Origin: Candidatus Woesebacteria bacterium
Lineage (GTDB): Bacteria > Patescibacteriota > Saccharimonadia > Saccharimonadales > EFPC-124
Direction of reading: 5' to 3'
NCBI GenBank assembly: GCA_050115675.1
Contig: JASFQB010000005.1
Span: forward strand, 22,556-86,555
Length of the DNA stretch: 64,000 nt
The notes beneath the pieces were generated by a model. The model was not told where the DNA came from, ran no database searches, and saw only the letters and a program-made list of their open reading frames with translations. Shown piece after piece: positions 2-32,812 of the stretch. Both the position numbers and the translations under genes were made by a program. Position 1 is the first letter of the stretch. Each line of letters starts with the position of its first letter.

Positions 2-355
2 ACGCCATTTTTGCAGGCGTTTACTGCGCTTGTTCTTCCTTTGTCTATCGTGACTGCAGTGGCTTTGAAGCTACCAGTTGCCATTACTATGTTGCTGTTT
101 GCGCCTTTTGTTCCAATTGGCGTAACGATTGTAACGCAGCTTATTGGATTGAACAATTTTGGTAGAGCCTTTAACGAAAAGGTGAGCGTCTGGCATTATA
201 TGTCGGTTGCTTGCTTGGCGTGGCTTTACCAGATCGTCCTTGGGGCGGCAGCGGTTTGGGCTGTTGCTCGACATCTGAAAGGAAACAATGGCTGGTACAA
301 GACGGGACGTAGTGGACAACATCGCAACGTTGCTTTCGAAGGTGGTGCAAAATGA
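2..355 (+). CDS. 3' end of a membrane-protein gene truncated by the window start (possibly the TM tail of a glycosyltransferase)
   Basis: Frame is open from nt 2 to TGA 353-355. Translation is rich in hydrophobic helices. The stop overlaps the next ATG (ATGA), implying co-transcription with the GT-C gene. Confidence 0.45.
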   Translation, partial: TPFLQAFTALVLPLSIVTAVALKLPVAITMLLFAPFVPIGVTIVTQLIGLNNFGRAFNEKVSVWHYMSVACLAWLYQIVLGAAAVWAVARHLKGNNGWYKTGRSGQHRNVAFEGGAK

Positions 356-1881
356 ACACAAAAAATATGCGTTTGCCCGAGTGGATTAAGAAGCATTGGG
401 TAAGTATCGAAGTATTGATGGCTTTGATGTTTGTTGTAGGGCTGGCTAATGCATGGAACCTCCATGGTTGGCCAGCGCGCCTTAACGACGACGAGGCGAC
501 GTACGTTGATCAAGCCTGGGCTTTTTTGCATAATGGCACGCTTAGTCACTACACCTACTGGTATGATCATCCACCCATGGGTTGGATTTTCATTGCCGCG
601 TATGCCTGGGTTACAGATGGTTTTGACCGTCTGTCCAGCGCCGTAATGGTTGGCCGCGAGGCTATGTGGTTTGTAGTGATGGCTAGTTGTGCACTCATCT
701 ACCTGCTCGTGCGGCGTCTAAACCTAAGCAGGTTTGCTGCTGTTGGCGCTGTGTTGATTTTTGGGCTTAGTCCGTTGGCAATTTACGAACACCGCATGGC
801 ATTTTTGGATAACCCTGCGACTATGTGGCTACTCGCTGCAATGGTTTTTGCGCTTTCCCCCAAAAAGGGATTGGGCGCAGCAATGGGTGCAGGAATTTGC
901 CTTGCGCTGGCTGTACTAACCAAAGAAACTATTGGCATTATGCTGCCAGTGGTAATTTGGTTGATGTGGCGCAACTCTGATAGGCGAACTCGCATTTGGA
1001 ATATCAGTGTATTTGTTACCATTTTTGGATTGCTTGGATTTTCGTACGTACTGTTTGCAATTCTTAAAGGCGAGCTGATTCCGGGATCAGACCACGTTAG
1101 CTTGGGCTGGGCCTTGTGGTATCAGTTTATTGGCCGAGAGGGAAGTGGTAGTGTTTTTGATTCTGCAAGTGATTCGTACAGATTAGTGCATGTGTGGTTT
1201 GCTCTTGATTCCTGGCTGCTATGGGCGGGACTGGCTGCTGCATTTGCTGGCCTGTTTGTAAAAAAGCTGCGTCCTTTTGCGGTTGCGGTTTTGATGCAGG
1301 TCTCGGTTGTGTTTAAGGGGGGGTATCTGCCCTCGCCGTACGTCATTGCCGTAATTCCGTTTATGTCTGTTTTGGTGACTGGCGTTCTTGAACTTCTTTG
1401 GAAGAGTGAGATGCCAATTACCAGTAGTGCAAAAAAGTTGTTCATTTTTACTAGACGATTCGCAATGGTAACGACTTGCACGGTGCTTGCTGTATCCATG
1501 GCATCTGTATCAATCAGTAATATCAGGTCGCAGTCGTTTTCTGATGGTGATTTGGCCTCTTTGCAAGCAACCGAATGGCTAATGAACAATATCAGCAAGG
1601 ACGACGTGGTCATTGTTGACGACTACATTTGGGGTGATCTTAAGATTGCTGGCTACAACCCAGTTTGGTACTGGAAGACCAGTGGTGATCCGCAGGTTAC
1701 TCGGGAAATTCTTCCAGAAGGCTACAAGAATGTCGATTACGTTGCAATGCCCTACACGCCCCCAAGTACTTTGGAATCTTTGCCCGTGTTGGGTGAGGCG
1801 ATAAAACACTCCACGGTCGTGGCGAGCTTTGGCGGAAGCTCCGAGGAGGCGGTTACGATTTACTGTGTTGATAACACATAG
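352..1881 (+). CDS. GT-C fold, lipid-carrier-dependent glycosyltransferase (PMT_2/ArnT-like)
   Basis: 509-aa polytopic membrane protein. The first extracytoplasmic loop 'WPARLNDDEATYVDQAW' (acidic DD/DE motif) and the overall topology are typical of GT39/GT83-type enzymes. Confidence 0.7.
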   Translation: MNTKNMRLPEWIKKHWVSIEVLMALMFVVGLANAWNLHGWPARLNDDEATYVDQAWAFLHNGTLSHYTYWYDHPPMGWIFIAAYAWVTDGFDRLSSAVMVGREAMWFVVMASCALIYLLVRRLNLSRFAAVGAVLIFGLSPLAIYEHRMAFLDNPATMWLLAAMVFALSPKKGLGAAMGAGICLALAVLTKETIGIMLPVVIWLMWRNSDRRTRIWNISVFVTIFGLLGFSYVLFAILKGELIPGSDHVSLGWALWYQFIGREGSGSVFDSASDSYRLVHVWFALDSWLLWAGLAAAFAGLFVKKLRPFAVAVLMQVSVVFKGGYLPSPYVIAVIPFMSVLVTGVLELLWKSEMPITSSAKKLFIFTRRFAMVTTCTVLAVSMASVSISNIRSQSFSDGDLASLQATEWLMNNISKDDVVIVDDYIWGDLKIAGYNPVWYWKTSGDPQVTREILPEGYKNVDYVAMPYTPPSTLESLPVLGEAIKHSTVVASFGGSSEEAVTIYCVDNT

Positions 1882-1893: not shown

Positions 1894-1936
1894 CGCCCAG
1901 CCAATAATAGGTTACTCTCATTGGCTGGGCGTTTTA
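1894..1936 (+). terminator. Rho-independent terminator
   Basis: 12-bp perfect stem cgcccagccaat/attggctgggcg followed by TTTT. Confidence 0.75.
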
Positions 1937-2034: not shown

Positions 2035-2763
2035 ATGGCAAGATTACCCCAACCCGGGCGAGATATGGGCGCCTGGGGAGATATTTTAAACGAGTTTTTG
2101 CTCGAAGAGCATAACCCCGATGGTACGCTAAAATTGCGTACAACAGGCGATTTAAACAGAGAGCCAATTATAGAAGCGGGCTCGGTAGGCCAATATTGGC
2201 GCGGCGACAAAACATGGCAACTGCTAGATAAAACAGCGGTTGGCCTAAGCGCAGTAAACAACACAAGTGATGATGACAAGCCTATAAGCAGTGCCGCTCA
2301 AGCAGCGCTTAACGAAAAAGTTAATACAAGTGGCTCGGTTATTTCTGGCGATTTAACTTTTGCGTCAGACGTTGGTTTGACATTTAATGGCACTAATCAG
2401 TATCTAAAATGGGCAACTGGAGAAGGCTTATGGTTGGCCGTTGCTGACGATAACAAAAATCTCAAGCTCTCTTATGGTGGAGGTAGCGGGCGTTTGGTCA
2501 TTGACCAATATGGCTATGGAGAAGTTGCCAGATTTAGCAATGGCATGTTAAGCATGAGGTCGCATTACATAAAAGATGTCGCAGATCCGTACGATGCAAG
2601 TGATGCCGCTACAAAGAACTACGTAGATACGAATGGATGGTCAGACGTGCCAGTTGCTATAAGCAGTGCCGGAATAGCGGGCCAAAAGGCTTACGATAGC
2701 CAGTATATGTATATTTGTGTAGCTACAAACACTTGGCGCAGAGTAGCGCTGGAGACTTGGTAG
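2035..2763 (+). CDS. Phage tail-fibre-like protein (native GC), paralogous N-terminus to the 28237-29835 gene
   Basis: 242 aa. Fibre-type motifs 'YWRGDKTWQLLDKTAVGLSAVNNTSDDDKPISSAAQAALNEK' and 'IKDVADPYDASDAATKNYVD'. The N-terminus 'MARLPQPGRDMGAWGDILNEFLLEEHNPDGTLK' is shared with the GC-rich gene. Confidence 0.6.
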   Translation: MARLPQPGRDMGAWGDILNEFLLEEHNPDGTLKLRTTGDLNREPIIEAGSVGQYWRGDKTWQLLDKTAVGLSAVNNTSDDDKPISSAAQAALNEKVNTSGSVISGDLTFASDVGLTFNGTNQYLKWATGEGLWLAVADDNKNLKLSYGGGSGRLVIDQYGYGEVARFSNGMLSMRSHYIKDVADPYDASDAATKNYVDTNGWSDVPVAISSAGIAGQKAYDSQYMYICVATNTWRRVALETW

Positions 2764-4641
2764 ATGAAAAGGCTTTTGCCTCTTGTTGGTACTGTGGCAG
2801 CGGGCGTTGCGGTGGCAACTGCGGGCGCATGGTTTGTTGAAAGCTTGGTCAAAGAAGTCCCCCCAAGTGATGATGTTTCAACTGTTCAGCAAGCAAGCTC
2901 TGATGACCAAACAAAAAACAATACAAGCTCCGTTGCAGATGCGTCAAGCTCTGGAGCTGACGGCGAAGATAATATTGTTGAAGCGGTGCTTTCAAGTATC
3001 TCAAGATTTTTTGGTTTTGAAAGTAATCCACAAAGCAGCATAATTGCACCGTCAATTTCTGGGCAAATTGAGCAAATTTCACAGTCCGAAGCTCCTGACT
3101 ACCGACAGTTAAAATTACGTGGACTAAACCTATCTGGTTTGGAGTTTAGCGGAATATTTCAACCAAACACAGAGCAAACCTACCAGTATATCCGGCAAAA
3201 AGGCTTCAACCTGGTACGATTGCCAGTAGAGTGGAGTGAGCTGCAGCCATATTTGTACGGTGATTTTGATTCAACCTCAAAAGAATACGTTGATCAAAAC
3301 ATTGCTTGGGCAAAAGAGAATGATCTGGCGGTCGTGCTAGACGTACATAACTACGGGCGTCGTCAAGTGTATCGTGATGGTGGACTTACAGATGATTTCA
3401 GTGAATCTACCCAGCACACATTTATTATGCCTTACGGTGATCACGACAGCTCGGCAGGCACGCTAACGTTTCGTGATTACGGACGTGGCCTGGCAGGAAC
3501 AGCCGCAAACCCAGTTTCTTCAAACGGCTATAAAGCCACTTTTGACGCAAAAATTGATCAAATCGGTGGCGATCTATGGAATGAATTTTTTATGGATGTC
3601 TACTACCAAAGCGAAGATGATCGATATACTTTGGCAATAAATCCAGTAACAAATACTTGGGCGCTGCGTCAAACAATCAGCGGGCAGCAAACCGTTTTGG
3701 CTAGTGGTAATAAAACTTGGTCAATAGATCAATACTATAATTTTTCTATTGATGTGAATCAGGCAACAAGCGAAAAAATCAACGTAAGCGTTGATGGAGA
3801 ACCGCTGTTTGAAGTTAACTCTGTTAATACAAGCCCTGAGTTAAAGAGTGGTTATGTTGCTATGTTTCCGGCTGGCGTAAAAGCCACAATAAAAGATTTT
3901 ACGCTTGATGTGGGTGGGGACATCTCAAGCGGTGGATCTATAGAGCAGCGTATAACTGATGAAGCTCTGCCGATAGAAGCCTGGGAAGATTTGTGGAGAA
4001 GGTTGGGCGAGACATATAAAGACGAAAGCACCGTTTTTGCCTATGACCACAACGAGCCTCACGACTTGCCGGTTTCGACAAGCACAGACAATTACTCCTA
4101 CCAGGTTGCCGCGGCAAACGGCGTACAGGTGGCAACTGCCACTCAACTTGGGCAAACAATGGTAGACTCTTTGCGAGAAGTAGGTGATACAAAGTTTGTT
4201 ATGGTAGAAATGGATCATTGGGCAAACGCGCATTACTTTGGTACTCAGTATGGAACCAACGCTGCACCATGGATTTCAGATAGTCTATCGCCACAAAAGG
4301 TTGTATACTCTGGACACTACTATTTTGATAGTGACCATAGTGGTATATATAGCGATCCAACCACACCTTCAAACGAGCAAATTGCAGCCGATGTAACTCC
4401 GTTTTTTGACTGGTGTAGCAAAAACCAAGCGCTATGCTACATTGGCGAGTTTGGCGTACCAAACACGAGCACGTGGCAGCCGTCGTTAGCTTACTTTTTA
4501 CAAACAATGGAGAATTATAACATTTGGTGGACACATTGGGCTGGGGGTGATTTGTACTCGTCTGTTACGAGTATTCAGCCAACAGAATCGTTCACAATTG
4601 ACCAAATGCAAATGGACACAATTGAGCCGTTCTTAGACTAG
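2764..4641 (+). CDS. Membrane-anchored/secreted glycoside hydrolase family 5 with an inserted jelly-roll-like domain
   Basis: N-terminal hydrophobic helix and S/D-rich linker. GH5 signatures occur in order: GFNLVRLPVEW, VVLDVHNY, NEPH, GHYYF, IGEFG, WTHWAGG. The start ATG directly follows the upstream stop (TAGATG). Confidence 0.8.
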   Translation: MKRLLPLVGTVAAGVAVATAGAWFVESLVKEVPPSDDVSTVQQASSDDQTKNNTSSVADASSSGADGEDNIVEAVLSSISRFFGFESNPQSSIIAPSISGQIEQISQSEAPDYRQLKLRGLNLSGLEFSGIFQPNTEQTYQYIRQKGFNLVRLPVEWSELQPYLYGDFDSTSKEYVDQNIAWAKENDLAVVLDVHNYGRRQVYRDGGLTDDFSESTQHTFIMPYGDHDSSAGTLTFRDYGRGLAGTAANPVSSNGYKATFDAKIDQIGGDLWNEFFMDVYYQSEDDRYTLAINPVTNTWALRQTISGQQTVLASGNKTWSIDQYYNFSIDVNQATSEKINVSVDGEPLFEVNSVNTSPELKSGYVAMFPAGVKATIKDFTLDVGGDISSGGSIEQRITDEALPIEAWEDLWRRLGETYKDESTVFAYDHNEPHDLPVSTSTDNYSYQVAAANGVQVATATQLGQTMVDSLREVGDTKFVMVEMDHWANAHYFGTQYGTNAAPWISDSLSPQKVVYSGHYYFDSDHSGIYSDPTTPSNEQIAADVTPFFDWCSKNQALCYIGEFGVPNTSTWQPSLAYFLQTMENYNIWWTHWAGGDLYSSVTSIQPTESFTIDQMQMDTIEPFLD

Positions 4642-19952: not shown

Positions 19953-20429
19953 ATGAAAAAACTAGACCAAAAAACACATGATGGTGGCTTTACTATCATT
20001 GAGGTCGTGTTGGTGCTTGCCATAGCAGCTTTGATCTTTTTGATCGTCTTCTTGGCATTGCCAGCATTGCAGCGATCTCAGCGTGACACAGCACGCAAAA
20101 ACGATGTTAGCCGATTTATTTCGCAGTTAACAAACTACCAATCTAACAACCAGGGTGCAATTCCTGCTAATACTGGCTGGGCAGGTTTTGTTAGCTCGTA
20201 CATGACGGTGGGTGGACAATCGTTTGCAGATCCGCAAACGGGCAGCTACACATTGAATGTTCTTGCCTCTACTGCAACAGCACCCACAAGCACAATTGGC
20301 ACTGTAAATATCTACCCTGGTGGAGTTTGCGATAGTGATTTGACCAATGGCGTGACTGCTGGTTCAGCACGACAGGTTGCAATTGTTATGCCTGTTGAGC
20401 AAGGTGGCTTTTACTGTCAAAACAACTAG
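19953..20429 (+). CDS. pilA: Major type IV pilin (prepilin with class-III signal)
   Basis: 'MKKLDQKTHDGG|FTIIEVVLVLAIAAL' (Gly-1, Phe+1, Glu+5). C-terminal Cys pair (GGVCDSD...FYCQNN). Own RBS GGGTGAGGG and a strong terminator. Confidence 0.85.
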   Translation: MKKLDQKTHDGGFTIIEVVLVLAIAALIFLIVFLALPALQRSQRDTARKNDVSRFISQLTNYQSNNQGAIPANTGWAGFVSSYMTVGGQSFADPQTGSYTLNVLASTATAPTSTIGTVNIYPGGVCDSDLTNGVTAGSARQVAIVMPVEQGGFYCQNN

Positions 20430-20443
20430 TTTGTAATTTATTT

Positions 20444-20478
20444 AAAAAAGTAGTTCCAATGCTGGGACTACTTTTTTT
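20444..20478 (+). terminator. Rho-independent terminator after pilA
   Basis: aaaaaagtagttcc / gggactacttttttt stem (one mismatch) with a T7 run. Confidence 0.75.
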
Positions 20479-20507
20479 ATTCACATAAAACTGATAGCAT
20501 AAGTAAG

Positions 20508-21308
20508 ATGGTAGAGCTAGTAATGATATTGCTGGGATTGGCTTTTGGTAGTTTTATAACTGCTTTTACTTGGCGCTTGCATGAAAAAAAAGACTTTGTA
20601 GCAGGTCGTTCGGAGTGTGAGAGTTGCGGACATGTATTGAGCGTGTTGGATCTATTGCCAGTAATAAGCTGGGTCTTCTTACGTGGTAGATGTAGATATT
20701 GTAAAAAAAGAATAAGCTGGGCCAATCCTCTGCTTGAGCTATCTATGGCTGTGTTATTCTTGTTGTCCTACATTTTTTGGCCATATTCTTTTGATCAGTG
20801 GCAAGCTTTGGCAGCGTTTGCTATTTGGTTGGTTTATCTCGTATTGTTAATGTCTTTGGTGGTTTACGATTTAAGGTGGATGCTTCTTCCAAATGCTGTA
20901 GTATTTCCGCTTATTGCGCTCGGTCTGATTGACGCGGCGCTTGTAGTGAGCTTGCAAGGGAGCATATCTTTGGCAGCGTATTTGTCACATATAGCTCTTG
21001 GGGCATGCGCTTTGGGTGGATTTTATTGGGTGCTGTATGAAGTCTCAAAGGGCAGATGGGTAGGATTTGGCGATGTAAAATTGGGTGTTTTTATGGGCAT
21101 AGTGCTTGGTTGGCAGCAAGCGCTGATGGTGTTATTTGCTGCAAACGTAATAGGGCTGGTCGTGATTTTACCTGCCTTAATGATGGGTAAGTTAGGGATG
21201 AAAACAAGATTACCCTTTGGTCCTTTTTTGATCGCAGGATTTATTATTGTAGGGCTGTTCGGTAATAAAATCATTAACTGGTATATTAGTGCACTTATAG
21301 TTGGATAA
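20508..21308 (+). CDS. pilD: Prepilin peptidase/N-methyltransferase family (A24) PilD
   Basis: N-terminal CxxC...CxxC ('CESCGH...CRYCKK'), polytopic, catalytic Asp motifs 'GFGDVKL' and 'PFGPFL'. Confidence 0.88.
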   Translation: MVELVMILLGLAFGSFITAFTWRLHEKKDFVAGRSECESCGHVLSVLDLLPVISWVFLRGRCRYCKKRISWANPLLELSMAVLFLLSYIFWPYSFDQWQALAAFAIWLVYLVLLMSLVVYDLRWMLLPNAVVFPLIALGLIDAALVVSLQGSISLAAYLSHIALGACALGGFYWVLYEVSKGRWVGFGDVKLGVFMGIVLGWQQALMVLFAANVIGLVVILPALMMGKLGMKTRLPFGPFLIAGFIIVGLFGNKIINWYISALIVG

Positions 21309-21343
21309 TAGCGCCTGTTTTAGTTAATCGAATATTAAGCTTA

Positions 21344-21352
21344 TGGTATAAT
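21344..21352 (+). promoter_or_regulatory. Extended -10 element TGgTATAAT
   Basis: 10 nt upstream of ATG 21362. The same ttatggtataat string precedes tmRNA. Confidence 0.4.
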
Positions 21353-21361
21353 TTTAATCAA

Positions 21362-22204
21362 ATGGGTATAAAGTGTTTTACAAGCGCGAGAAAGATTGTT
21401 GATAGGGCAGGTGTACTGCGATGTCCTTGTGATAATGATGGACAATCAGGTTATACGATTACCGAGATAAGCTTATTTTTGGGGATAAGTGGTCTTTTAA
21501 TACTGTTAGTGTTGATGGGTAGCGGTGCCACAATACAGGCTACACGCTTTACGGATAGCAGCAGATCTTTGCACGCTTTCATACAAAAACAGTACGACAA
21601 TATTTTAAATGGCGTTAACACTCGTAATGCCGATATAGCTTGTGATTCTGGCGTGATAGATTCGAGTCCGGCAAAAGGCGATGAAGTTGGCACTACAAAC
21701 TGCCTATTGATGGGTAGGTTGGTTGTATTGGATCAAGATAGTGTGGTCGCTACAGCGTATTCGATCATTGGCGTAGAGCCAGCAAATCCAGACTATAACC
21801 AGCCTGATGCAGAACTTATTCATGATTTTAATCCAATAATCGTCAGAGATATCGATACCGAGCAGTTTACTATTCCCTGGGGTGCAAGCGTTGTAGGCAG
21901 CAAACGTTCTAGTGATTCTACAAAAGTTAATGCCTTTGCTATGATTCGTAGCCCACGCTCTACGAGGGTACTTTTTTACACATATCAAGAACCTTTGACA
22001 AGCTATAATCTTGCAGAGCTAGTTAATCCTAACCTTGCAGAAGACGACAATAATTTTAGTTCGTCAACAAACACAAGCAATTTTTGTCTAAGAAGTGCGG
22101 ACACTTTTGCTGTAATGTCAAGAATCAAAATTGCGGGTGGGCAAGGCCAGGATGCAATTGGACTATCGTTTGACGCGACGACGGAGGATTGCAATGGCAA
22201 TTAA
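21362..22204 (+). CDS. Minor pilin-like protein (long leader)
   Basis: '...GQSG|YTITEISLFLGISGLLILLVL' prepilin-type cleavage motif with Glu+5. 280 aa. Confidence 0.6.
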   Translation: MGIKCFTSARKIVDRAGVLRCPCDNDGQSGYTITEISLFLGISGLLILLVLMGSGATIQATRFTDSSRSLHAFIQKQYDNILNGVNTRNADIACDSGVIDSSPAKGDEVGTTNCLLMGRLVVLDQDSVVATAYSIIGVEPANPDYNQPDAELIHDFNPIIVRDIDTEQFTIPWGASVVGSKRSSDSTKVNAFAMIRSPRSTRVLFYTYQEPLTSYNLAELVNPNLAEDDNNFSSSTNTSNFCLRSADTFAVMSRIKIAGGQGQDAIGLSFDATTEDCNGN

Positions 22205-22751
22205 AAGCCAAAGAGGTGATACGCTAGTTGAAGTTCTAATGGCTGTGGTGATTTTGAGTTTGGTTATTGTTGGTGCGATAACAATGATGTCACGCGGTCT
22301 TAGCGCAGCTCAGATTGCAGTAGAGCATACGCAGGTAAGACAAAGCATAAATGGTCAAACAGAAATGTTACGCTACCTACGTGACGCATATTTGTTAGAC
22401 AAAAATGGTTCTGCTGCGCAAGCTTGGGAGTCGTTATTTAGTGGATCTTCGTTATATGCCAACAATGTTCCTTCATCGTATGGTGGGGCTTGTGCGGTTA
22501 CTGCAAATAAAACTGGTTTTTATTTAGAGCAGTCTGGATCTAATGTTAATGTTATTGCGTTTGATTCTGCTAATAAGCCAACAACAGTAGCATTGCCTGG
22601 TCAGGGTTTATGGATAGAAGCCACACGTTCTGCATCAGGAATATCGCCAGCCTATGTTGATTTTCAGATAAGGGCTTGTTGGCAGGGTGTTGGTAGCTCA
22701 GCTGAGCAGCAAACGGTAACCGTGGAGAGATTGTATGATCCAGCACACTAA
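22194..22751 (+). CDS. Minor pilin-like protein
   Basis: ATG 22194 gives 'MAIKSQRG|DTLVEVLMAVVILSLVIVG' (Glu+5). Overlaps the upstream gene by 11 nt. The longer 22131 start is unlikely. Confidence 0.6.
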   Translation: MAIKSQRGDTLVEVLMAVVILSLVIVGAITMMSRGLSAAQIAVEHTQVRQSINGQTEMLRYLRDAYLLDKNGSAAQAWESLFSGSSLYANNVPSSYGGACAVTANKTGFYLEQSGSNVNVIAFDSANKPTTVALPGQGLWIEATRSASGISPAYVDFQIRACWQGVGSSAEQQTVTVERLYDPAH

Positions 22752-23370
22752 ATCTAATCAGTCAGGTTTTACTCTTGTGGAATTGACGTTAGCTATGGCG
22801 TTTGTGTCGTTTATTTTGTTGTTTATAGTTTTTGCTATGATAGAAATTATGGGTGATTACAACAAGGGGATTGTAGTCAAAGAGATTAATCAAACTGCGC
22901 GCACTATTGTTGAAGAAATGGGCAGGCTAAGTAGATCTACGGACGCATCTGCAATCAATACCTCGGCACAGGCCGAAGGAAGGCTTTGTTTTGGTAGTGT
23001 GAGTTATGCGTGGAATGTTCGTGGTAACGAGCTGGATAATAAATTTACAGACAACAGTCTTGTTGGCTTGGTCCGAGTGGAGGATCCAGCCGGTTCTTTG
23101 TGCGGATTAGTGTCTGGATCTTACCCTCAGATTGATCGCGCAAGTGCCATAGATTTAATAAGCGACCAAGTATGGGTGCAAAATTTAAATGCTCAGGTAA
23201 GCGGCAATCAAAAGCTTGTAGATATTGATTTAAAGCTGTCAACTGCGGGAGACAACAGGCCAACAGGAGTTGGTCCAAGCGGTTACATATGTGAAGGCGG
23301 AAAAATTGGTAACTTCTGTGCGGTAGCAGAGTTTAATACTACAGTTAGCACAAGAAACGGAGGGGAATGA
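22735..23370 (+). CDS. Minor pilin-like protein
   Basis: 'MIQHTKSNQSG|FTLVELTLAMAFVSFILL' canonical prepilin N-terminus. Confidence 0.7.
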   Translation: MIQHTKSNQSGFTLVELTLAMAFVSFILLFIVFAMIEIMGDYNKGIVVKEINQTARTIVEEMGRLSRSTDASAINTSAQAEGRLCFGSVSYAWNVRGNELDNKFTDNSLVGLVRVEDPAGSLCGLVSGSYPQIDRASAIDLISDQVWVQNLNAQVSGNQKLVDIDLKLSTAGDNRPTGVGPSGYICEGGKIGNFCAVAEFNTTVSTRNGGE

Positions 23371-24551
23371 TGAAGATTGCTAGGCGAAACATACAACCGA
23401 AAGAAGAAGGGTTTGTATCAATTTTTACAGTAATATTCTTTATGATGCTGGTCTCGGTGATTACCATTGGTTTTTTGCGCATCATGACGATAGAGCAACG
23501 TCAATCGCTTGATAACGATCTAACAGCAAGTGCGTTGGCCTCCGCAGAGTCTGGAATAGAAGATGCAAAAAGGGCAATATTAAAATACGCAAACATGCCC
23601 AATGGTGCCGAAAAAAATGCGCTAAGAAGTGCTTTAACTTCAAATGAATGTAATGCACTACTAGATAATGCAACAGCAAATAGTATTGGAATCAACGCAG
23701 ACGGCAGTATAACTGGCGATCCAGACCTTAATCAATATTACACATGCTTAAGCGTTAATCTATACTCGGCTGATTATTTGGGCGACTCGTCTGCGGGTGT
23801 AAGTGAATATGTACCACTTCGAACAGAAAGCGACGATCAGTTTGATCAAATTAAAATATCGTGGCATATGGTTAGCAACGCAATTGGCACGGATGGTGAT
23901 GGTCGCCCAAGCAACTATGCCTTGTCTACGGCCTTTCCAAAAGTGACAGGAGATGCGCAAAGCTGGGGTTCGCGTGGCTATCCTGCATATATGCGCGTGC
24001 AGCTTTACGGCTACCCCGAAGGATCTTTTACGCGCGATAATGTGAATGATCGTACACGTGCAGTATTTTTGGTACCAAGCGTAGTGGGAATAACAGAAGG
24101 TACAGCAATATCTACAACGGTGTCTGATCCGACTCCGCACGAATTCGACAATGATAAATCTGCAGTACAGGCTATACAGTGTAAAGATACTCCAGCGACC
24201 GTAAGTGAAGGGGAGTACGCCTGTACGGCCACAATATCGTTGCCCGATGACCCAACTTTAAGAGGCAATAATAATGAGTACTATCTACGCGTTACGCCTT
24301 TATATGGCGCTACTCACTATAAAATTCAGCTAATTGACAGTAGTAAAGCAGAAATTGTTAATTTTAGCGAGGTTCAGCCAATTGTTGATGTTACGGGTCG
24401 CGCCAGTGACGTTTATCGTAGAGTGCAGGCTAGAGTGCGTATGCAGTCCGTGGGAGATCTTCCAGAATACGCTGTTGAAAGTGCAGATGATATTTGTAAG
24501 AACATGCAGGTATCAGACGGTAGCTTTTATCAAGCAAATAGTTGCCCTTGA
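23367..24551 (+). CDS. PilX-like large minor pilin / tip-associated protein
   Basis: '...PKEEG|FVSIFTVIFFMMLVSVITIGFLRIMTIEQRQS' (PilX_N-like, no Glu+5). 394 aa. Last gene of the locus. Confidence 0.55.
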   Translation: MMKIARRNIQPKEEGFVSIFTVIFFMMLVSVITIGFLRIMTIEQRQSLDNDLTASALASAESGIEDAKRAILKYANMPNGAEKNALRSALTSNECNALLDNATANSIGINADGSITGDPDLNQYYTCLSVNLYSADYLGDSSAGVSEYVPLRTESDDQFDQIKISWHMVSNAIGTDGDGRPSNYALSTAFPKVTGDAQSWGSRGYPAYMRVQLYGYPEGSFTRDNVNDRTRAVFLVPSVVGITEGTAISTTVSDPTPHEFDNDKSAVQAIQCKDTPATVSEGEYACTATISLPDDPTLRGNNNEYYLRVTPLYGATHYKIQLIDSSKAEIVNFSEVQPIVDVTGRASDVYRRVQARVRMQSVGDLPEYAVESADDICKNMQVSDGSFYQANSCP

Positions 24552-24555
24552 TTTC

Positions 24556-25482: not shown

Positions 25483-25564
25483 TATACCAGCAAACCCTTA
25501 AGAACAAAAAAATTATTCAAAATTAACAGTAGTATAGGCATGGCAAATAGGCTACAATATACCT

Positions 25565-26347: not shown

Positions 26348-26410
26348 CTTAGCCCATTGATATAACCGTCAATAACATCTACAATGTTCATAAAATTTTA
26401 GGAGAAATAA

Positions 26411-27040: not shown

Positions 27041-27057
27041 AAATAGTGTATAATAAT

Positions 27058-27087
27058 AGAGCGGTCTAAAGTCCGCTCTATATTTTT
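27058..27087 (+). terminator. Rho-independent terminator after ndk
   Basis: agagcgg/ccgctct stem followed by aTaTTTTT. Confidence 0.7.
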
Positions 27088-27164
27088 GCCTCGGTAGCTC
27101 AGCTGGATAGAGCACCTCCGTCCTAAGGAGGGTGCCGGGGGTTCGAATCCCTCCCGGGGTACCA
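27088..27164 (+). tRNA. tRNA-Arg (anticodon CCT)
   Basis: Hand-folded cloverleaf: acceptor gcctcgg/ccggggt, D arm gctc..gagc, anticodon stem cctcc/ggagg with loop gtCCTaa, T arm ggggg-ttcgaat-ccctc, encoded CCA. Confidence 0.85.
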
Positions 27165-28165
27165 TATTTCCCTGATCATCATTTTTGAGCTTGAACAGCT
27201 CGTTTAACTTCGGTGGTTCCACCGAAGTTTTGTTTGCAGAAAGTAAGTCGCCATAGTTTGGTGCACTGTTGAATAACAGGCCAAAGAAGTTGGCTTTTTG
27301 CACTGGATCAATCTGTTTTACGAGCAAATCTTCTAGATGCTGCAATTAATTACCGTTTCTGAGCTAACGAGCTTGATCTTATCAACCAATGCTTTCGCCT
27401 GCGCTCGCAGTGTGTTTATATGCGTTTCAATGCGCTGCTCTTCGTCTACGACTGATTGGTTTCGTTGTGTCCAGACGGTTTCCACGGCCGCTAGGAGCCC
27501 GTCGATTCGTGCCTCTTCGTATTTGACCCGGTGTACGAAATCGGCAATGGTCGTTTCAAAATCTTTTTTAGGCACGCGGAAGCAGTGGCCACGCTTGTTG
27601 TAGTGGTAGGCCGGGTAAAGTTTGCCCATCTTGCCGCGTGTAGAGCTGTCAAAGAGTGGTTTTTCGCACTCGGGACGCACAGACGATCTTATGGTATGAA
27701 AACTCGGCGTTCCGCGTACTTTTGGGAGTTGCGTAGCGCTCCTCAGTCGGCCTTTCGTACAGAAATATAGCCCCATCTTTCTCGCCGATCACGAGCTTGC
27801 CTTTATTGGCGGCATTGAATAGCTCGTAAGAAATTAGGCCAGCGAATTGCCCTCTAACAGCCTTGTTGTCTGTTTACTTTTCGCAAATAATGCCGGCGTA
27901 TATTGGATTTGCGATGTATCGCCAGAACGTTTTAATGTCAAGCTTCTTGCCGCCTCGTTTGCCAATAGCCTGAGTACGCTCCTGTGTACTCCTGAGCGTT
28001 TGCGTGCGTGACTTATAGCCAAGCTTATTTATCTCGTCTACGATTTGTCGGTCGTCTAAAGTCCTTCTGGCGCGTAACTCAAACATTTTGGTTATGAATT
28101 CGGATTCGGTGGGGCACGGTCGTAGCGCTAACTGTTCCCCATGCTGCGTATCTGTGCAGTTAAAG
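27165..28165 (-). pseudogene. Large serine recombinase remnant: catalytic N-domain missing, at least 3 frame disruptions
   Basis: Recombinase-domain piece 'EFITKMFELRARRTLDDRQIVDEINKLGYKS...FWRYIANPIYAGIICEK*' (28086-27874). A shifted piece 'LISYELFNAANKGKL'. A zinc-ribbon and coiled-coil piece 'CEKPLFDSSTRGKMGKLYPAYHYNKRGHCFRVPK...RIETHINTLRAQAKALVDKIK' (27776-27333). A further-shifted C-terminal piece (27345-27165) that runs into the tRNA. Confidence 0.7.
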
Positions 28166-28236
28166 CTTGTCGCTAAAAAATAGCAAGATATCCAAACAGG
28201 AATCCTCCGTAAGGGAGACTTAAAAGATTAGTATCT

Positions 28237-29835
28237 CTATCCAACCTCTGCCATCTCGACAGTCGCCACCCACCGGATGGTTTTCGCGGCTTCGCCGGTG
28301 ACAGTGATTGCGAGTCTGTTGTTGGTGCTGTCGGCGGTGACAGCGACGGTCCAGGTGGTGGCTCCGGCGTCGCACATGGTGGTGGTGCCGGTGCCGGTAG
28401 GGGTGCCGAGGAGTCTGCAGTTGCCGGTAGCGTCGCGGGTGATGGCGGCGTGGATGGGTGCCCATGCGGCGGCGGTGCCGGAGACGTCGGTGCGGTGAGC
28501 GGCGACGCGGATGGTGCATGCCATGGTGCGGGTTGCTGCGATGGTGATGTAGCCGCTGGTGGCGCCGTCGGCGGATAGCTCGGTGCCGGTGGCGTCGGTG
28601 GTGGTGATGCGGAGGACATCGACGACGTGTCGGGCGTCACCGGCGGTGGTGAAGTGCCCGTTCGAGGTGGCGTGTTGGCCGTATCTGTCTGCTTTTGCGT
28701 AGCTGCCGAGTGCGGTCGATGAGTCGCCGGACGCGGAGGCAGAGTTTCCGAGTGCGGTTGCGTAGTCGGCTGATGCGGTGGCCGATCTGCCTACGGCGGT
28801 CGCGGAGTCGCTGGCGGAGGCTGCGTATCCGACGGCAATCGAGGAGGAGCCGGATGCGGAGGCCGACCGGCCGACGGCGGTCGCGACAGTGCCGGACGCG
28901 GAGGCTGATTGTCCGACGGCAGTCGCATAGGAGCCAGCGGAGGCCGACCGGCCGACGGCTGTGGCGTAGTTGCCGGACGCGGAGGCTGATTGTCCGACGG
29001 CAGTCGCATAGGAGCCAGCGGAGGCCGACCGGCCGAGGGCGGTCGCGGATGTATTTATCGCAGAAGACAAAACCCCCACCGCCACAGAATTATTCCCACT
29101 AGCCACCGACGAAACCCCCAATGCCAAAGCGTCCGTCCCGGTAGCCGAACCGCCCGCACCAGGCGGCAAAGCCCAAGTACTATCGCCGCGCAAAAACGTA
29201 GTTCCGTCTGCCGTGCCCGTTCCAAGCCTGGCGGTATTCATCGTGCCAGATGTAATGTCCGCCGTACTGTGACCGTGATCTCCTGCGGCGGCCTGTTGCG
29301 CGCCCGTGCCCAAAGTACGAAGCGACGGCGTAGCCGTTGTGCCGTCTACCGAACCAGCTGCCATGTTGGCAGAAGTTAAACCCGTAAGAGCATCCGAACC
29401 TCCTGGCGCATGACTAGACGCGTGGGCCGTGGGAGTCCTGGCGTCCGAAAGTCGTGCATCATCGCCCTGGGCTGCACTGCCAGACGTAGTGCCATAAACA
29501 ACCGCCAATGTTACATCCGAATTCAGCGCTCCGCCACCCGTCAAACCAGTGCCAGCGACAACTTGTCTGGTGGACTGCACTGCGCCAGTTATGCGACTGT
29601 CATCTCCGGCGGCAACCGTGCCGCTTGTACTGCCCACGTTTTTAGTTGCAGAATCGCCCAAATCTGTAACATCCGAAGCTGTATGATGATGAATTACGTC
29701 TGCCTTAGAAGAGAGTGCACTAGATTTTAGAGAGCCGTCAGAATTATGCGTAACCAGTAAAAAATCGTTAAGGATATCACCCCAAAGACCGTCATCAGAA
29801 CCGGAAACTGGAAGCCTGGACACTCTGCCCCCCAA
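28237..29835 (-). CDS. Tail-fibre / trimeric-adhesin-like protein, compositionally chimeric (GC-rich body)
   Basis: 532-aa ORF; the likely true start is GTG 29823, giving 'MSRLPVSGSDDGLWGDILNDFLLVTHNSDGSLK'. Fibre motifs 'AAGDDSRITGA', 'AQGDDARLSDA', 'AAGDHGHSTADITSG', 'FLRGDSTWALP'. YadA-head/Hep_Hag-like repeats 'SASASGNYATAVGRSASAGSYATAVGQ'. High GC3. Confidence 0.75.
   Translation of the reverse strand: MGGRVSRLPVSGSDDGLWGDILNDFLLVTHNSDGSLKSSALSSKADVIHHHTASDVTDLGDSATKNVGSTSGTVAAGDDSRITGAVQSTRQVVAGTGLTGGGALNSDVTLAVVYGTTSGSAAQGDDARLSDARTPTAHASSHAPGGSDALTGLTSANMAAGSVDGTTATPSLRTLGTGAQQAAAGDHGHSTADITSGTMNTARLGTGTADGTTFLRGDSTWALPPGAGGSATGTDALALGVSSVASGNNSVAVGVLSSAINTSATALGRSASAGSYATAVGQSASASGNYATAVGRSASAGSYATAVGQSASASGTVATAVGRSASASGSSSIAVGYAASASDSATAVGRSATASADYATALGNSASASGDSSTALGSYAKADRYGQHATSNGHFTTAGDARHVVDVLRITTTDATGTELSADGATSGYITIAATRTMACTIRVAAHRTDVSGTAAAWAPIHAAITRDATGNCRLLGTPTGTGTTTMCDAGATTWTVAVTADSTNNRLAITVTGEAAKTIRWVATVEMAEVG
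28891..29036. repeat. Intragenic tandem duplication, 81-bp period (27 codons)
   Basis: 65-nt string gccggacgcggaggctgattgtccgacggcagtcgcataggagccagcggaggccgaccggccga occurs identically at 28891-28955 and 28972-29036. Confidence 0.9.
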
Positions 29836-29969
29836 TTAGTGTTTTATGTTACTTTTGATTATAACTACATCCCTCACAAAACAAAACCCCTGCAGGGTCG
29901 AGCGTTGCAAAGTAGTCGTCTAGAGTTTCGGCGCGGCGGATCTGTACAACTTTTTGTTATGATAAATAT

Positions 29970-30299: not shown

Positions 30300-30325
30300 C
30301 AAGAAGTACTGTTTGGTATTATCAT

Positions 30326-30820: not shown

Positions 30821-30823
30821 AAA

Positions 30824-32809: not shown

Positions 32810-32812
32810 TAT

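What the first reader, a model, noticed from the sequence alone, without database searches (positions are those of the whole stretch)
2035..2763. Two paralogous surface-fibre genes share a conserved N-terminal module
The 2035-2763 product begins MARLPQPGRDMGAWGDILNEFLLEEHNPDGTLK. The 28237-29835 product, read from GTG 29823, begins MSRLPVSGSDDGLWGDILNDFLLVTHNSDGSLK. Both later carry a (Y/F)(W/L)RGD(K/S)TW motif. The downstream parts are unrelated in length and composition (242 aa at native GC versus 532 aa at high GC). A shared N-terminal module with swapped distal domains is how phage fibres and some adhesin families diversify specificity. Here both copies are chromosomal and no other phage structural genes are nearby.
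Basis: seen in the sequence. Interest (0 to 1): 0.6.

Follow-up and report, generated by a model that had tools for sequence, protein, structure and literature searches.

The report
Phage-type fibre gene family in Saccharibacteria
Two chromosomal genes of an ultrasmall (CPR/Saccharibacteria-like) bacterium belong to a very large, undescribed family of phage-tail-fibre-like proteins that keep one 35-residue N-terminal module and swap everything after it; they are candidate host-recognition fibres, though that function is not shown.

Summary
ORF 2035-2763 (+, 242 aa) and ORF 28237-29823 (-, 528 aa from the GTG) share only an N-terminal module (20/30 identical, E 3e-11) and a later [YF][WL]RGDx[ST]W motif.

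- **Family:** a profile of the module finds 6,585 protein clusters. The module sits at residue 1 in about 145 of the best 150. What follows is phage-type: shaft repeats, collagen, pectate-lyase-like beta-helices, esterases, lectin tips.
- **Distribution:** almost all genomic copies lie in Saccharibacteria-labelled MAGs, several per genome, among housekeeping genes. A few actinophages carry the module on tail proteins.
- **Gene 1:** it sits in a conserved block (PMT-like glycosyltransferase, fibre, GH5, rpsF-ssb-efp). It is under purifying selection (dN/dS 0.08), abuts the GH5 gene, and has a different tip in relatives.
- **Gene 2:** it is a chimera in a tRNA-Arg island beside a decayed serine recombinase. 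The module has native composition; the distal half is high-GC, with its closest homologues in high-GC phage contigs.
- **Unexpected:** in 15-22% of related loci the fibre gene follows tatC and a twin-arginine mini-protein.

Surface location and host binding are inferred, not shown. No member has a Sec signal.

The parts
2035..2763 (+). Gene 1: 242-aa fibre-like protein of the 'MARLP' family
   Evidence: ORF. It is 89% identical to its orthologue P0001/L006, with dN/dS 0.084. The exact protein is MGD8374034.1, annotated 'hypothetical protein'.
2035..2142 (+). N-terminal module of gene 1, residues 1-36 (MxRLPxPGxDxGxWGxILN[DE]FLxxxHNxDGxLK)
   Evidence: BLASTP against gene 2, E 3e-11. Alignment A1 has invariant M1 R3 L4 P5 D10 W14 L18 N19 G30. 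The profile finds 6,585 clusters. No Pfam, NCBIfam or PDB sequence match covers it.
2152..2433 (+). Phage tail-fibre-type shaft, residues 40-133, including YWRGDKTW (2194-2217) and the NTSDxxKPxS unit
   Evidence: PHROG hits phrog_38418 (3.8e-18), phrog_33513 and phrog_35419 'tail fiber protein'. tblastn gives 43-58% identity to minor tail proteins of Arthrobacter, Rhodococcus, Mycobacterium and Gordonia phages.
2536..2634 (+). Junction motif, residues 168-200 (...IKDVADPYDASDAATKNYVD), after which the tip differs between orthologues
   Evidence: Weak Phage_T7_tail hit (E 0.088). Weak PDB hit to 'tail fiber gp9', 23sh (E 0.02). Alignment A2 shows orthologues diverging after this point.
2641..2760 (+). 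C-terminal tip, residues 203-242 (...YMYICVATNTWRRVALETW)
   Evidence: phrog_17312 'tail protein', C-terminal end, 1.3e-10. This is the only confident part of the AF2 model (pLDDT 86-87). P0004-P0016 carry a tip of about 100 aa in its place.
1894..1935 (+). Hairpin plus T-run between the PMT-like gene and gene 1 (terminator-like)
   Evidence: Read directly from the sequence: GCGCCCAGCCAAT...ATTGGCTGGGCG TTTT. The consensus terminator scan did not list it. If it works as a terminator, gene 1 and GH5 have their own promoter.
2764..4641 (+). Partner gene: 625-aa GH5 ('cellulase') protein with an N-terminal hydrophobic anchor or signal; its ATG directly follows the TAG of gene 1
   Evidence: Pfam Cellulase 1.2e-33. 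TAGATG junction. The same fibre-GH5 pair is found in L003 and L006.
352..1881 (+). Upstream PMT-like (GT-C) glycosyltransferase, part of the conserved block
   Evidence: Pfam PMT 2.8e-08. Synteny GT2/GtrA - PMT - fibre - GH5 - rpsF - ssb - (rpsR) - efp in L003 and L006.
28237..29823 (-). Gene 2: 528-aa mosaic fibre-like protein (stop codon included)
   Evidence: ORF. Mosaic homology. GC3 gradient. It is absent from the 15-billion-protein collection, and JGI called only 277 aa.
29716..29823 (-). N-terminal module of gene 2, residues 1-36, with native-like composition
   Evidence: 69% identical to P0216 over residues 1-39. GC3 is 0.40 for codons 1-30 and 0.20 for codons 31-60.
29164..29694 (-). 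Minor-tail-protein-like repeats, residues 44-220, ending with FLRGDSTW (29173-29196)
   Evidence: phrog_8780 'minor tail protein' 4.5e-22. 55-61% identity to minor tail proteins, among hits in 148 Gordonia phage records. PDB 9d93 'tail collar fibers gp4' 9e-8.
28624..29160 (-). YadA-head-type repeats, residues 222-400; includes the 81-nt tandem DNA repeats at 28691-29098
   Evidence: Pfam YadA_head 3.6e-20, 8 stretches. PDB BpaC and Hep_Hag. Repeat family D1. Two short-read contigs break here.
28240..28683 (-). C-terminal beta-sandwich domain, residues 381-528, GC3 0.83-0.87 over codons 391-510
   Evidence: 57-70% identical to the C-termini of P0123-P0137, which sit in phage structural modules. 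Two of those contigs have GC 0.68-0.71. AF2 pLDDT 82.7. Best PDB fold match is Klebsiella phage Kp9 tail fibre gp42, E 1e-3, TM 0.46.
29828..29863 (-). Putative expression signals of gene 2: TATAAT (29858-29863) and a G-run (29828-29833) four bases before the GTG
   Evidence: Read directly from the sequence. A terminator-like hairpin lies at 29885-29899 just upstream. Function not shown.
27088..27164 (+). tRNA-Arg(CCT), probable integration site of the island that holds gene 2
   Evidence: ARAGORN and Rfam.
27333..28086 (-). Decayed large serine recombinase: recombinase domain, zinc-ribbon-like and coiled-coil parts; one stop, one frameshift, no catalytic N-terminal domain
   Evidence: Three-frame reading. 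Pfam Recombinase PF07508, E 3.6e-4, 21.2 bits against a cut-off of 21.1. phrog_95 integrase, E 0.012.

Best explanation
Both genes belong to one large, so far unnamed family of phage-receptor-binding-protein-like fibres. The family is encoded in the chromosomes of Saccharibacteria-type Patescibacteria.

**Architecture (shown).** A strictly N-terminal module of about 35 residues (MxRLPxPGxDxGxWGxILNDFLxxxHNxDGxLK) is followed by interchangeable phage-type parts. Shaft units include NTSDxxKPxS/DUF5907 repeats, collagen and YadA-head repeats. Distal parts are small lectin-like tips or polymer-degrading domains.

**Gene 1 (shown).** It is a vertically inherited copy in a conserved housekeeping locus. 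It is under purifying selection and directly abuts a gene for a membrane-anchored GH5 glycanase.

**Gene 2 (shown as a mosaic; its origin is inferred).** It is a recent chimera. A module of native composition is joined to shaft and tip segments of high GC content. The closest homologues of those segments are tail and other structural proteins of high-GC, actinophage-like phages. The gene lies in the remnant of an element integrated at tRNA-Arg.

**How it most likely works (inferred).**
- The conserved module is the common adaptor that every copy needs for oligomerisation, export or anchoring on the cell.
- The variable distal parts bind, and with the partner enzymes cut, envelope glycans of the bacterium on which the epibiont lives. 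They would act as phage fibres and tailspikes do.
- New specificities arise by module exchange, including capture of DNA from phages of the host.

**Export route.** It is unknown. The only genomic lead is the recurrent gene order tatC, then a twin-arginine mini-protein, then a fibre gene, seen in relatives.
For: **The family is real**
- The module profile finds 6,585 clusters at E <= 1e-3 and 4,957 at E <= 1e-10. The module is at residues 1-35 in about 145 of the best 150.
- Nine alignment columns are invariant.

**Phage-type parts follow the module**
- Of 76 representatives: DUF5907 25, BppL_N-like 20, pectate-lyase-like 4, plus collagen, GDSL, HylP, GH26 and Phage_tail_C.
- Of 69 genomic members: BppL_N-like 15, pectate-lyase-like 10, DUF5907 9, collagen 7, plus tail collar, endosialidase N-terminal extension and a phage depolymerase C-terminal domain.
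- Shaft homology to actinophage minor tail proteins.
- The same module heads tail proteins in phages: Streptomyces phage GiJojo gp34, where a pectate-lyase-like domain appears to follow by eye (not scanned); BRock gp186; and a gene directly after a putative tape-measure gene in a GC-69% viral contig.

**Cellular, not prophage, context**
- The exact pattern gives 124 confirmed hits in species-representative genomes. 65 of the 78 loci kept are labelled Saccharibacteria, and one MAG holds up to 4.
- The same query confirms only 3 hits in 2.9 million viral contigs.
- Neighbours are housekeeping genes: rpsF, ssb, efp, dnaK, grpE, nusA, parAB, prfA.

**Gene 1 is functional and old**
- Synteny is kept with a relative whose fibre is 66% identical over residues 1-198 and carries a different tip.
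- dN/dS is 0.084 against the 89% orthologue.
- Its TAG is followed directly by the GH5 ATG.

**Enzyme partners recur.** Genes tightly coupled downstream of family members encode GH5, GDPD, a Pel9A-like beta-helix, Laminin_G_3, F5/8 type C, BNR, sulfatase and esterase domains.

**Gene 2 is a chimera**
- Segment-wise homology and GC3 steps of 0.2-0.4, then 0.4-0.6, then 0.7-0.87.
- Tip homologues lie in phage contigs that carry a terminase or a tape-measure gene. Two of these have GC 0.68-0.71 and GC3 about 0.9. The portal-sized protein next to the terminase in one of them has Streptomyces phage ZL12 as its only match among cultured phages.
- Both halves are joined to native flanks in a second assembly.
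Against: - No family member examined has a Sec signal, lipobox or sortase signal, and most partner enzymes lack one too. Surface display therefore needs an unknown export route.
- No expression, localisation or binding data exist.
- The AF2 model of gene 1 is poor (mean pLDDT 56.5), and the fold and oligomeric state of the module are unknown.
- The organism's host is unknown. Its record is labelled Woesebacteria, not Saccharibacteria.
- Gene 2 has no orthologue anywhere and was not called full-length by the JGI annotation. It lies beside a dead recombinase and could be decaying cargo.
- The join of its two halves crosses tandem repeats where short-read contigs break.
- Direction and donor of the transfer are inferred from composition and from the best hits only.
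Confidence: 0.6

Rival explanations
1. Prophage debris. The genes are leftovers of integrated phages (tail-fibre genes that outlived the rest) with no role for the cell.
For: All recognisable parts are phage-type. Gene 2 sits in a tRNA-Arg island beside a decayed serine recombinase, has no orthologue, and has foreign composition.
Against: - Gene 1 keeps its place in a housekeeping block across relatives that differ by 34% in protein sequence, and shows dN/dS 0.084.
- Thousands of intact family members lie singly among housekeeping genes in genomes of about 1 Mb.
- No phage hallmark family recurs among neighbours of 85 loci.
- The module is rare in viral contigs.
Confidence: 0.12
2. Nutritional glycan harvesting, not host recognition. 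The fibres and their partner enzymes bind and degrade environmental polysaccharides (plant or microbial polymers) to feed the cell.
For: Partners and fused domains are GH5, GH26, pectate-lyase-like, esterases, CBM5/12 and lectins. Most metagenome hits come from the JGI collection. Soil Saccharibacteria have been proposed to use plant-derived polymers (PMC6031116).
Against: - The shafts and the N-terminal module are shared specifically with actinophage tail proteins. Those proteins target bacterial envelopes.
- Partners include GDPD, a phosphodiesterase family that (from general knowledge, not tested here) includes teichoic-acid-degrading enzymes.
- The tips turn over fast at fixed loci. That fits a changing biotic target better than bulk polymers.
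Confidence: 0.15
3. Parts supplied in trans to a virus or phage-like particle. The chromosome-encoded fibres are mounted on virions or tailocin-like particles made from genes elsewhere, changing their target range.
For: There is no signal peptide, as for virion proteins. In phages the same module heads proteins in tail positions.
Against: No tail, baseplate or capsid genes were found near any of 85 loci or in this window. The genomes are about 1 Mb, and no integrated phage was reported in a curated complete genome (PMC6031116). Several unlinked copies per genome would be an odd arrangement for such parts.
Confidence: 0.07
4. Gene 2 is a trimeric autotransporter adhesin of the YadA type.
For: YadA_head repeats 3.6e-20. 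PDB hits to BpaC, Hep_Hag and YadA heads. Weak NCBIfam hits to Ata, YadA and BimA.
Against: There is no signal peptide and no YadA anchor. The C-terminus is a beta-sandwich shared with phage proteins. The N-terminus is the family module. Cultured Saccharibacteria are regarded as monoderm (general knowledge), so there would be no outer membrane to insert into.
Confidence: 0.02
5. Anti-phage decoys. Cell-made fibres with a phage-type adaptor poison the assembly of incoming phages.
For: The adaptor-like module is shared with phage tail proteins.
Against: No PADLOC match. A decoy would not need the huge diversity of enzymatic and lectin distal parts, or the coupled glycanases. The phages known to carry the module are high-GC actinophages, not phages of Saccharibacteria.
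Confidence: 0.04

Closest known systems
Minor tail proteins, tail fibres and tailspikes of actinobacteriophages (Gordonia, Arthrobacter, Mycobacterium, Rhodococcus and Streptomyces phages), including Streptomyces phage GiJojo gp34 and BRock gp186
   Same: - Shaft repeats are homologous at 43-61% identity.
- The architecture is the same: conserved N-terminus, variable distal lectin or depolymerase.
- GiJojo gp34 and BRock gp186 carry the same N-terminal module at 61-67% identity.
- There is no signal peptide.
   Different: - The genes here are single chromosomal genes among housekeeping genes of a CPR bacterium, not part of a tail gene cluster.
- The family is greatly expanded in Saccharibacteria-labelled genomes and rare in viral collections.
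- One copy sits in a vertically conserved locus under purifying selection.
Modular receptor-binding proteins of siphophages of Gram-positive bacteria, e.g. TP901-1 BppL (from general knowledge, plus Pfam PF18338)
   Same: Many family members have a BppL_N-like motif (VVHxxGxETIxGxKTF) at residues 44-67, right after the module. The logic is the same: an anchoring N-terminus and an exchangeable head.
   Different: The BppL_N hits are below Pfam's gathering score (16-23 bits against 25.8), and neither window protein has one. The 35-residue module itself matches nothing in Pfam or the PDB.
Trimeric autotransporter adhesins (YadA, BpaC, Hep_Hag heads)
   Same: Residues 222-400 of gene 2 are YadA-head repeats.
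   Different: No signal peptide, stalk/neck or membrane anchor. The repeats are embedded in a phage-type fibre.
Tat translocases encoded next to their own substrate (Bacillus subtilis phoD-tatAd-tatCd) and Tat 'hitchhiker' export of signal-less partners (E. coli hydrogenase-2 HybO/HybC); both recalled from general knowledge
   Same: In relatives, tatC, a small protein with a twin-arginine-type signal (NF038009-like) and a signal-less fibre gene lie in a row on one strand.
   Different: The fibres have no twin-arginine signal. No tatC lies in this 64-kb window. No interaction or export has been shown. This is a lead, not a membership.
Mtd-type variable proteins of diversity-generating retroelements
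   Same: Some proteins that share the shaft repeats start with an Mtd_N domain. Both are receptor-binding fibres with a variable end.
   Different: No reverse transcriptase and no template/variable repeat pair was found in the window. Variation here is by module exchange.

Membership tests
Phage tail fibre / receptor-binding protein ('minor tail protein' of actinophages) | Sequence homology to annotated phage fibre or minor tail proteins | tested here: met
   PHROG tail families at 1e-10 to 4.5e-22. tblastn at 43-61% identity to minor tail proteins of many actinophages.
Phage tail fibre / receptor-binding protein ('minor tail protein' of actinophages) | Conserved N-terminal part with exchangeable distal part | tested here: met
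   Module at residue 1 in about 145 of 150, with unrelated C-termini. Tip swap between syntenic orthologues.
Phage tail fibre / receptor-binding protein ('minor tail protein' of actinophages) | Encoded in a phage genome or prophage, within or near the tail gene cluster | tested here: not met
   Gene 1 lies between a glycosyltransferase and GH5-rpsF-ssb-efp. Gene 2 lies beside a tRNA and a dead recombinase only. Relatives lie in housekeeping contexts, and no phage hallmark family recurs among neighbours.
Phage tail fibre / receptor-binding protein ('minor tail protein' of actinophages) | Component of a virion; trimeric fibre | not testable with these tools
   Only monomer AF2 was available. Gene 1 model has mean pLDDT 56.5.
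Trimeric autotransporter adhesin (gene 2) | YadA-type head repeats | tested here: met
   PF05658 at 3.6e-20, 8 stretches. PDB 7o23, 3s6l, 1p9h.
Trimeric autotransporter adhesin (gene 2) | N-terminal signal peptide | tested here: not met
   The protein starts with the hydrophilic module MSRLPVSGSDDGLWGD....
Trimeric autotransporter adhesin (gene 2) | C-terminal YadA membrane anchor (PF03895) | tested here: not met
   No anchor hit. The C-terminus is a beta-sandwich shared with phage proteins.
Tat substrate | Twin-arginine signal peptide (S/T-R-R-x-F-L-K plus a hydrophobic region) | tested here: not met
   The module has a single Arg and no hydrophobic stretch.
Tat substrate | Genetic linkage to Tat components | tested here: inconclusive
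   tatC lies within 6 kb in 19 of 85 genomic loci and 12 of 80 metagenome loci, usually adjacent, with a twin-arginine mini-protein gene in between. There is none in this window. The loci are not phylogenetically independent.
DGR variable protein | Nearby reverse transcriptase and a template/variable repeat pair | tested here: not met
   No second copy of any part of either gene and no RT-like ORF in the window.
Known anti-phage defence systems | Match to a PADLOC model | tested here: not met
   No hit for gene 1, gene 2 or GH5.

The most novel reading that the evidence does not exclude
The 35-residue module is an export and anchoring tag. Saccharibacteria would fold and trimerise phage-type receptor-binding fibres in the cytoplasm. 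They would then move them to the cell surface through the Tat pathway, either directly or as 'hitchhikers' of the 65-residue twin-arginine mini-protein encoded between tatC and a fibre gene. One conserved tag would then serve all copies in the genome. New distal modules would be captured from phages of the host bacterium, as in gene 2. This would give these epibionts a phage-like, rapidly exchangeable host-range system, and would explain why such reduced genomes keep Tat.
Probability: 0.2. Interest if true: 0.9.

Novelty: new variant of a known kind. Interest (0 to 1): 0.66.

Why it matters
How ultrasmall epibiotic bacteria recognise and hold on to their hosts is largely unknown. One preprint abstract says so directly (10.1101/2024.11.25.624915, listed). 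Genetic work on Southlakia epibionticum found essential envelope proteins with glycan-binding or glycan-degrading domains, but does not describe this family (PMC10633639).

- **Candidate specificity determinants.** A family of thousands of phage-type fibres with one constant N-terminal module and exchangeable binding or cutting ends gives concrete candidates. These can be tested the way phage receptor-binding proteins are.
- **A transfer in progress.** Gene 2 appears to show fibre modules of high-GC phage type joined to a cellular adaptor.
- **A testable export route.** The recurring tatC, twin-arginine mini-protein, fibre gene order suggests how signal-less folded fibres might leave the cell.

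If none of this holds, the result is still useful. The family is real and large, it lacks any Pfam model for its defining module, and it is annotated as 'hypothetical protein'.

Tried and rejected
- **Structure of gene 1:** AF2 with 20 sequences gave mean pLDDT 56.5. Only the 40-residue tip is confident, so no fold search was run on it.
- **Solved structures for the module:** none found by sequence. Gene 1 gave only marginal hits.
- **Fold of the gene 2 tip:** a confident beta-sandwich, but PDB matches are weak (best E 1e-3, TM 0.46). This gives a fold class only.
- **Island borders:** no direct repeat of the tRNA-Arg 3' end was found, so the borders are undefined.
- **DGR:** no template repeat and no reverse transcriptase.
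- **Defence:** no PADLOC hits.
- **TAA reading of gene 2:** rejected, because the anchor and signal are missing.
- **Gene 2 tip against cultured phages:** no match.
- **Promoter and terminator scans:** counts are at shuffle level and say little.
- **Literature:** no paper links Saccharibacteria or Patescibacteria with tail-fibre-like or minor tail proteins of this kind, or mentions DUF5907.
- **Organism identity:**
  - The record says 'Candidatus Woesebacteria bacterium'.
  - The TM7-905 probe site, recalled from memory, is not matched; the general bacterial version is present.
  - rpsF is 72% identical to a Candidatus Saccharimonas MAG, and all close relatives of gene 1 are Saccharimonadales-labelled.
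  - I treat it as Saccharibacteria-like, unresolved.
Full report
**1.
- ORF 2035-2763 (+) encodes 242 aa starting MARLPQPGRDMGAWGDILNEFLLEEHNPDGTLK.
- The minus-strand ORF 28237-29835, read from GTG 29823, encodes 528 aa starting (M)SRLPVSGSDDGLWGDILNDFLLVTHNSDGSLK.
- BLASTP aligns residues 1-30 with 20 identities (E 3e-11). A second, weak segment starts at YWRGDKTW / FLRGDSTW. Nothing else aligns, and the genes share no DNA similarity.
- In the six-frame translation of the whole window, both motifs occur only in these two ORFs.
- The GTG start is supported by a G-run four bases upstream, by the family consensus, and by an independent gene call on a Logan contig.
- Gene 1 has genome-like composition (GC3 0.42). 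In gene 2, GC3 climbs from 0.20-0.40 (codons 1-60) through 0.4-0.6 (61-270) to 0.7-0.87 (271-510).

**2. The genome.**
- The window carries an rRNA operon, RNase P RNA, tmRNA and eight tRNA genes. GC is about 0.43.
- Its proteins are exact matches to an NCBI MAG labelled 'Candidatus Woesebacteria bacterium'. Gene 1 is MGD8374034.1, 'hypothetical protein'.
- However, all close relatives of gene 1, its synteny block and rpsF (72% identity) are in Saccharimonadales-type MAGs.
- I call it Saccharibacteria-like and flag the label as doubtful.

**3. The module defines a large family.**
- A search with gene 1 found 179 proteins. Most start with MxRLPxPGxDxGxWGxILNDFLxxxHNxDGxLK and then diverge into several unrelated C-terminal classes.
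- A 36-column profile has invariant M1, R3, L4, P5, D10, W14, L18, N19 and G30.
- Against 1.84 billion representatives it finds 6,585 clusters at E <= 1e-3 and 4,957 at E <= 1e-10. The module is at residues 1-35 in about 145 of the best 150.
- Rare proteins carry it in tandem or internally.
- No Pfam or NCBIfam model and no PDB sequence covers it.

**4. What follows the module is phage-fibre material.**
- Of 76 representatives: DUF5907 repeats 25, a BppL_N-like motif 20, pectate-lyase-like beta-helices 4, plus PTR, collagen, GDSL esterases, HylP hyaluronidase, GH26 and Phage_tail_C.
- Of 69 genomic members: BppL_N-like 15, pectate-lyase-like 10, DUF5907 9, collagen 7, beta-helix 6, plus tail collar, endosialidase N-terminal extension and a phage depolymerase C-terminal domain.
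- The BppL_N motif lies at residues 44-67, just after the module, and scores below Pfam's threshold.
- Residues 40-133 of gene 1 hit PHROG tail-fibre families. They are 43-58% identical to minor tail proteins of Arthrobacter, Rhodococcus, Mycobacterium and Gordonia phages. Its last 40 residues match the end of a PHROG tail protein.
- Residues 44-139 of gene 2 are 55-61% identical to minor tail proteins, with hits in 148 Gordonia phage records.

**5. The module also occurs in phages, on tail proteins.**
- Six Streptomyces phages of the BRock/GiJojo type have it at 61-67% identity. In GiJojo gp34 the region after the module looks pectate-lyase-like by eye; it was not scanned. GiJojo gp9, a 'minor tail protein', starts with a divergent version.
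- Of 2.9 million IMG/VR contigs, only three hits were confirmed with the same query. All three contigs are high-GC.
  - In one (GC 0.69) the gene directly follows a 509-aa ORF that I read, by position and size, as the tape-measure gene.
  - In another (GC 0.62) it lies with collagen-like fibre genes and an amidase-like gene, identified by its N-terminal sequence only.

**6. In genomes it is overwhelmingly a Saccharibacteria chromosomal family.**
- The exact pattern WGDILN[ED]F gave 124 confirmed hits in 185,579 species-representative genomes. Of the 78 loci kept, 65 are labelled Saccharibacteria, Saccharimonadales or similar. One MAG holds up to four.
- These proteins range from 89 to 1,439 aa.
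- Neighbourhoods are housekeeping: nusA and clpB; parAB and prfA; grpE and dnaK.
- No phage hallmark family recurs among 946 neighbour ORFs of 85 loci.

**7. Gene 1 is an old, constrained, operonic gene.**
- The block GT2/GtrA, PMT-like, fibre, GH5, rpsF, ssb, (rpsR), efp is shared with L006 (89% identical fibre) and with L003. In L003 the fibre is 66% identical over residues 1-198, and the locus GC is 0.57 against about 0.46 for the first kilobases of the window.
- After the junction ...DAATKNYVD the window has a 40-residue tip. P0004-P0016 have an unrelated tip of about 100 residues.
- dN/dS against L006 is 0.084.
- A hairpin with a T-run separates gene 1 from the PMT-like gene. Its TAG is followed at once by the ATG of the GH5 gene. 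The GH5 product has an N-terminal hydrophobic anchor and a Cellulase domain.
- Other family members are likewise followed, with gaps from -29 to +25 nt, by large genes. These encode GDPD, a Pel9A-like beta-helix, Laminin_G_3, DUF4082/DMFA2_C, F5/8 type C, BNR, sulfatase and esterase domains. Most of these partners lack signal peptides too.

**8. Gene 2 is a mosaic in an island.**
- It lies next to tRNA-Arg(CCT). Beside it is a large serine recombinase that has lost its catalytic domain and carries a stop and a frameshift.
- Its parts are the module (69% identical to P0216), minor-tail-type repeats, YadA-head repeats (Pfam 3.6e-20; PDB BpaC and Hep_Hag), and a 148-residue C-terminal domain.
- That domain is 57-70% identical to the ends of proteins of about 330 aa. 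These are encoded in phage structural modules, near a tape-measure gene, an HK97-gp10-like gene or a terminase.
- Two of those contigs have GC 0.68-0.71 and GC3 about 0.9, like the 3' half of gene 2. The portal-sized protein next to the terminase in one of them has Streptomyces phage ZL12 as its only match among cultured phages.
- The domain models as a beta-sandwich (pLDDT 82.7). Its best, weak, PDB match is a Klebsiella phage tail fibre.
- Assembly check:
  - Two contigs from a separate assembly of run SRR11713588 are 100% identical to window 20411-28919 and 29007-34299. Both end in the 81-nt tandem repeats.
  - The NCBI record and the JGI gene map show one contiguous locus across the repeats.
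  - JGI called only the last 277 codons, and the full protein is not in the 15-billion-protein collection.
- The simplest reading is a native adaptor joined by recombination to fibre segments of high-GC phage type. The donor and the direction of transfer are inferred.

**9. An unexpected linkage.**
- The only neighbour family that recurs strongly is TatC: 20 genes in 19 of 85 loci, against 5-7 loci for the next families (an ABC transporter, dnaK, lepA, hrcA, grpE). It is directly adjacent in about 13 loci, usually upstream on the same strand.
- The fibre genes at this site differ widely, from 98 to 1,439 aa, and sometimes two are present.
- Between tatC and the fibre gene lies an ORF of about 65 codons. 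It has a twin-arginine-type signal ([SDNT]-R-[RK]-x-F-L plus a hydrophobic stretch) and ends in GYGSSxYGG(K)KK.
  - It was found in 9 genomic loci.
  - It matches NCBIfam NF038009, 'twin-arginine translocation system-associated protein', at E 1e-11 to 8e-18, below the curated cut-off.
- The pattern replicates in metagenome contigs. TatC is present in 12 of 80 loci (5 of the 27 that are at least 9 kb long), and the mini-ORF in 8.
- A single-copy gene should fall in about 1% of 12-kb windows of a 1-Mb genome.
- Caveats:
  - The loci share ancestry.
  - Fibre genes also sit at other conserved positions (grpE...dnaK; PMT...GH5).
  - The fibres have no twin-arginine signal.
  - The window itself has no tatC.
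- One soil Saccharibacteria genome was reported to have tatBC with only four predicted substrates (PMC6031116).

**10. Interpretation.**
- *Shown:* a real, large, modular family with a constant N-terminal module; phage-type shafts and tips; chromosomal, non-prophage context; constraint on gene 1; chimerism of gene 2; coupling to polymer-degrading or polymer-binding partners.
- *Inferred:* the proteins act outside the cell, on envelope glycans of the epibiont's host, as phage fibres and tailspikes do. The module is the shared adaptor for assembly, export or anchoring. Tat is a candidate route.
- *Rivals:* prophage debris (plausible only for gene 2), nutritional glycan harvesting, parts for a virus-like particle, TAA, and defence decoy. 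Each is weighed in its own section.

**11. Novelty.**
- The parts are known kinds (phage fibre repeats, YadA heads, GH5). What is not described in any paper I could search is:
  - the 35-residue module;
  - its family of thousands in Saccharibacteria chromosomes;
  - the fixed loci with swapped tips;
  - the tatC linkage.
- I rate it a new variant of a known kind, with interest 0.66.

Noticed in passing
L027 4401-6834; L091 4720-8286; L067 4667-10320; L080 4760-7665; also L126, L131, L135, L141, L159: In relatives, the gene order tatC, then an ORF of about 65 codons with a twin-arginine-type signal ending GYGSSxYGG(K)KK (NF038009-like), then a fibre gene recurs. It is seen in 19 of 85 genomic and 12 of 80 metagenome loci. 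The fibres at this site differ greatly between genomes.
   Followed up: partly
L033 4055-5941 (-), L048 2456-4177 (-), L054 3509-5170 (-), L089 10329-11369 (-) and others: A second recurrent neighbour family (11 genes in 10 loci). These are signal-peptide proteins of 250-630 aa whose mature N-terminus reads SYGxGxYGxCxY. That resembles the C-terminal GYGSSxYGG of the Tat-associated mini-protein. Meaning unknown.
   Followed up: no
window 27088-28236: tRNA-Arg(CCT) is followed by a decayed large serine recombinase on the minus strand. It keeps the recombinase domain, zinc-ribbon-like and coiled-coil parts, but has one stop, one frameshift and no catalytic domain. No att-type repeat of the tRNA end was found.
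   Followed up: partly
window 28691-29098: The 81-nt (2 x about 40-nt) tandem repeats inside gene 2 break two short-read contigs of run SRR11713588. This may be why JGI called only 277 codons. The full-length protein is absent from a 15-billion-protein collection.
   Followed up: yes
window, whole (16S rRNA 56945-58418): The deposited record is labelled 'Candidatus Woesebacteria bacterium', but rpsF (72%) and the gene 1 block match Saccharimonadales-labelled MAGs. The 16S site of the TM7-905 probe, recalled from memory, shows the general bacterial sequence. The taxonomic label looks unreliable.
   Followed up: partly
window 20508-25482: A type IV pilus-like cluster (prepilin peptidase A24 at 20508-21308; a product with a faint N_methyl pilin hit at 22194-22751) and a tyrosine recombinase (Phage_integrase, 24556-25482, minus strand) lie a few kb upstream of the gene 2 island. 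Domains are taken from the precomputed hits on L099.
   Followed up: no
window 48620-51658: A 1,012-aa protein has weak VirD4/TraG-type coupling-protein domains (T4SS-DNA_transf 4e-7, TraG-D_C 3e-5). A published Saccharibacteria T4SS was reported to lack a recognisable coupling protein (PMC10633639).
   Followed up: no
window 46301-46697: The tmRNA has a long predicted tag peptide of 25 residues (AKSFANVKQTLASLFQAPQFAFQAV).
   Followed up: no
L002 8791-9738 (Streptomyces phage BRock gp186); L001 8956-10398 (GiJojo gp34): The phage annotations look off. BRock gp186 is called 'collagen triple helix repeat-containing protein' but shows no collagen repeats, and its CDS overlaps a tRNA-Lys. In both phages the family module starts well inside the annotated CDS, which suggests the annotated starts are too far upstream.
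   Followed up: no
L009 6139-9891; L010 9120-11758: Around other family members lie further signal-less proteins. They carry Y/W-x-W-D/N-G-[ST]-x-W motifs at their ends, and by eye some contain SGNH-type (GDS motif) or beta-helix/lectin-like regions (not scanned). The cassettes may hold more than two cooperating proteins.
   Followed up: no
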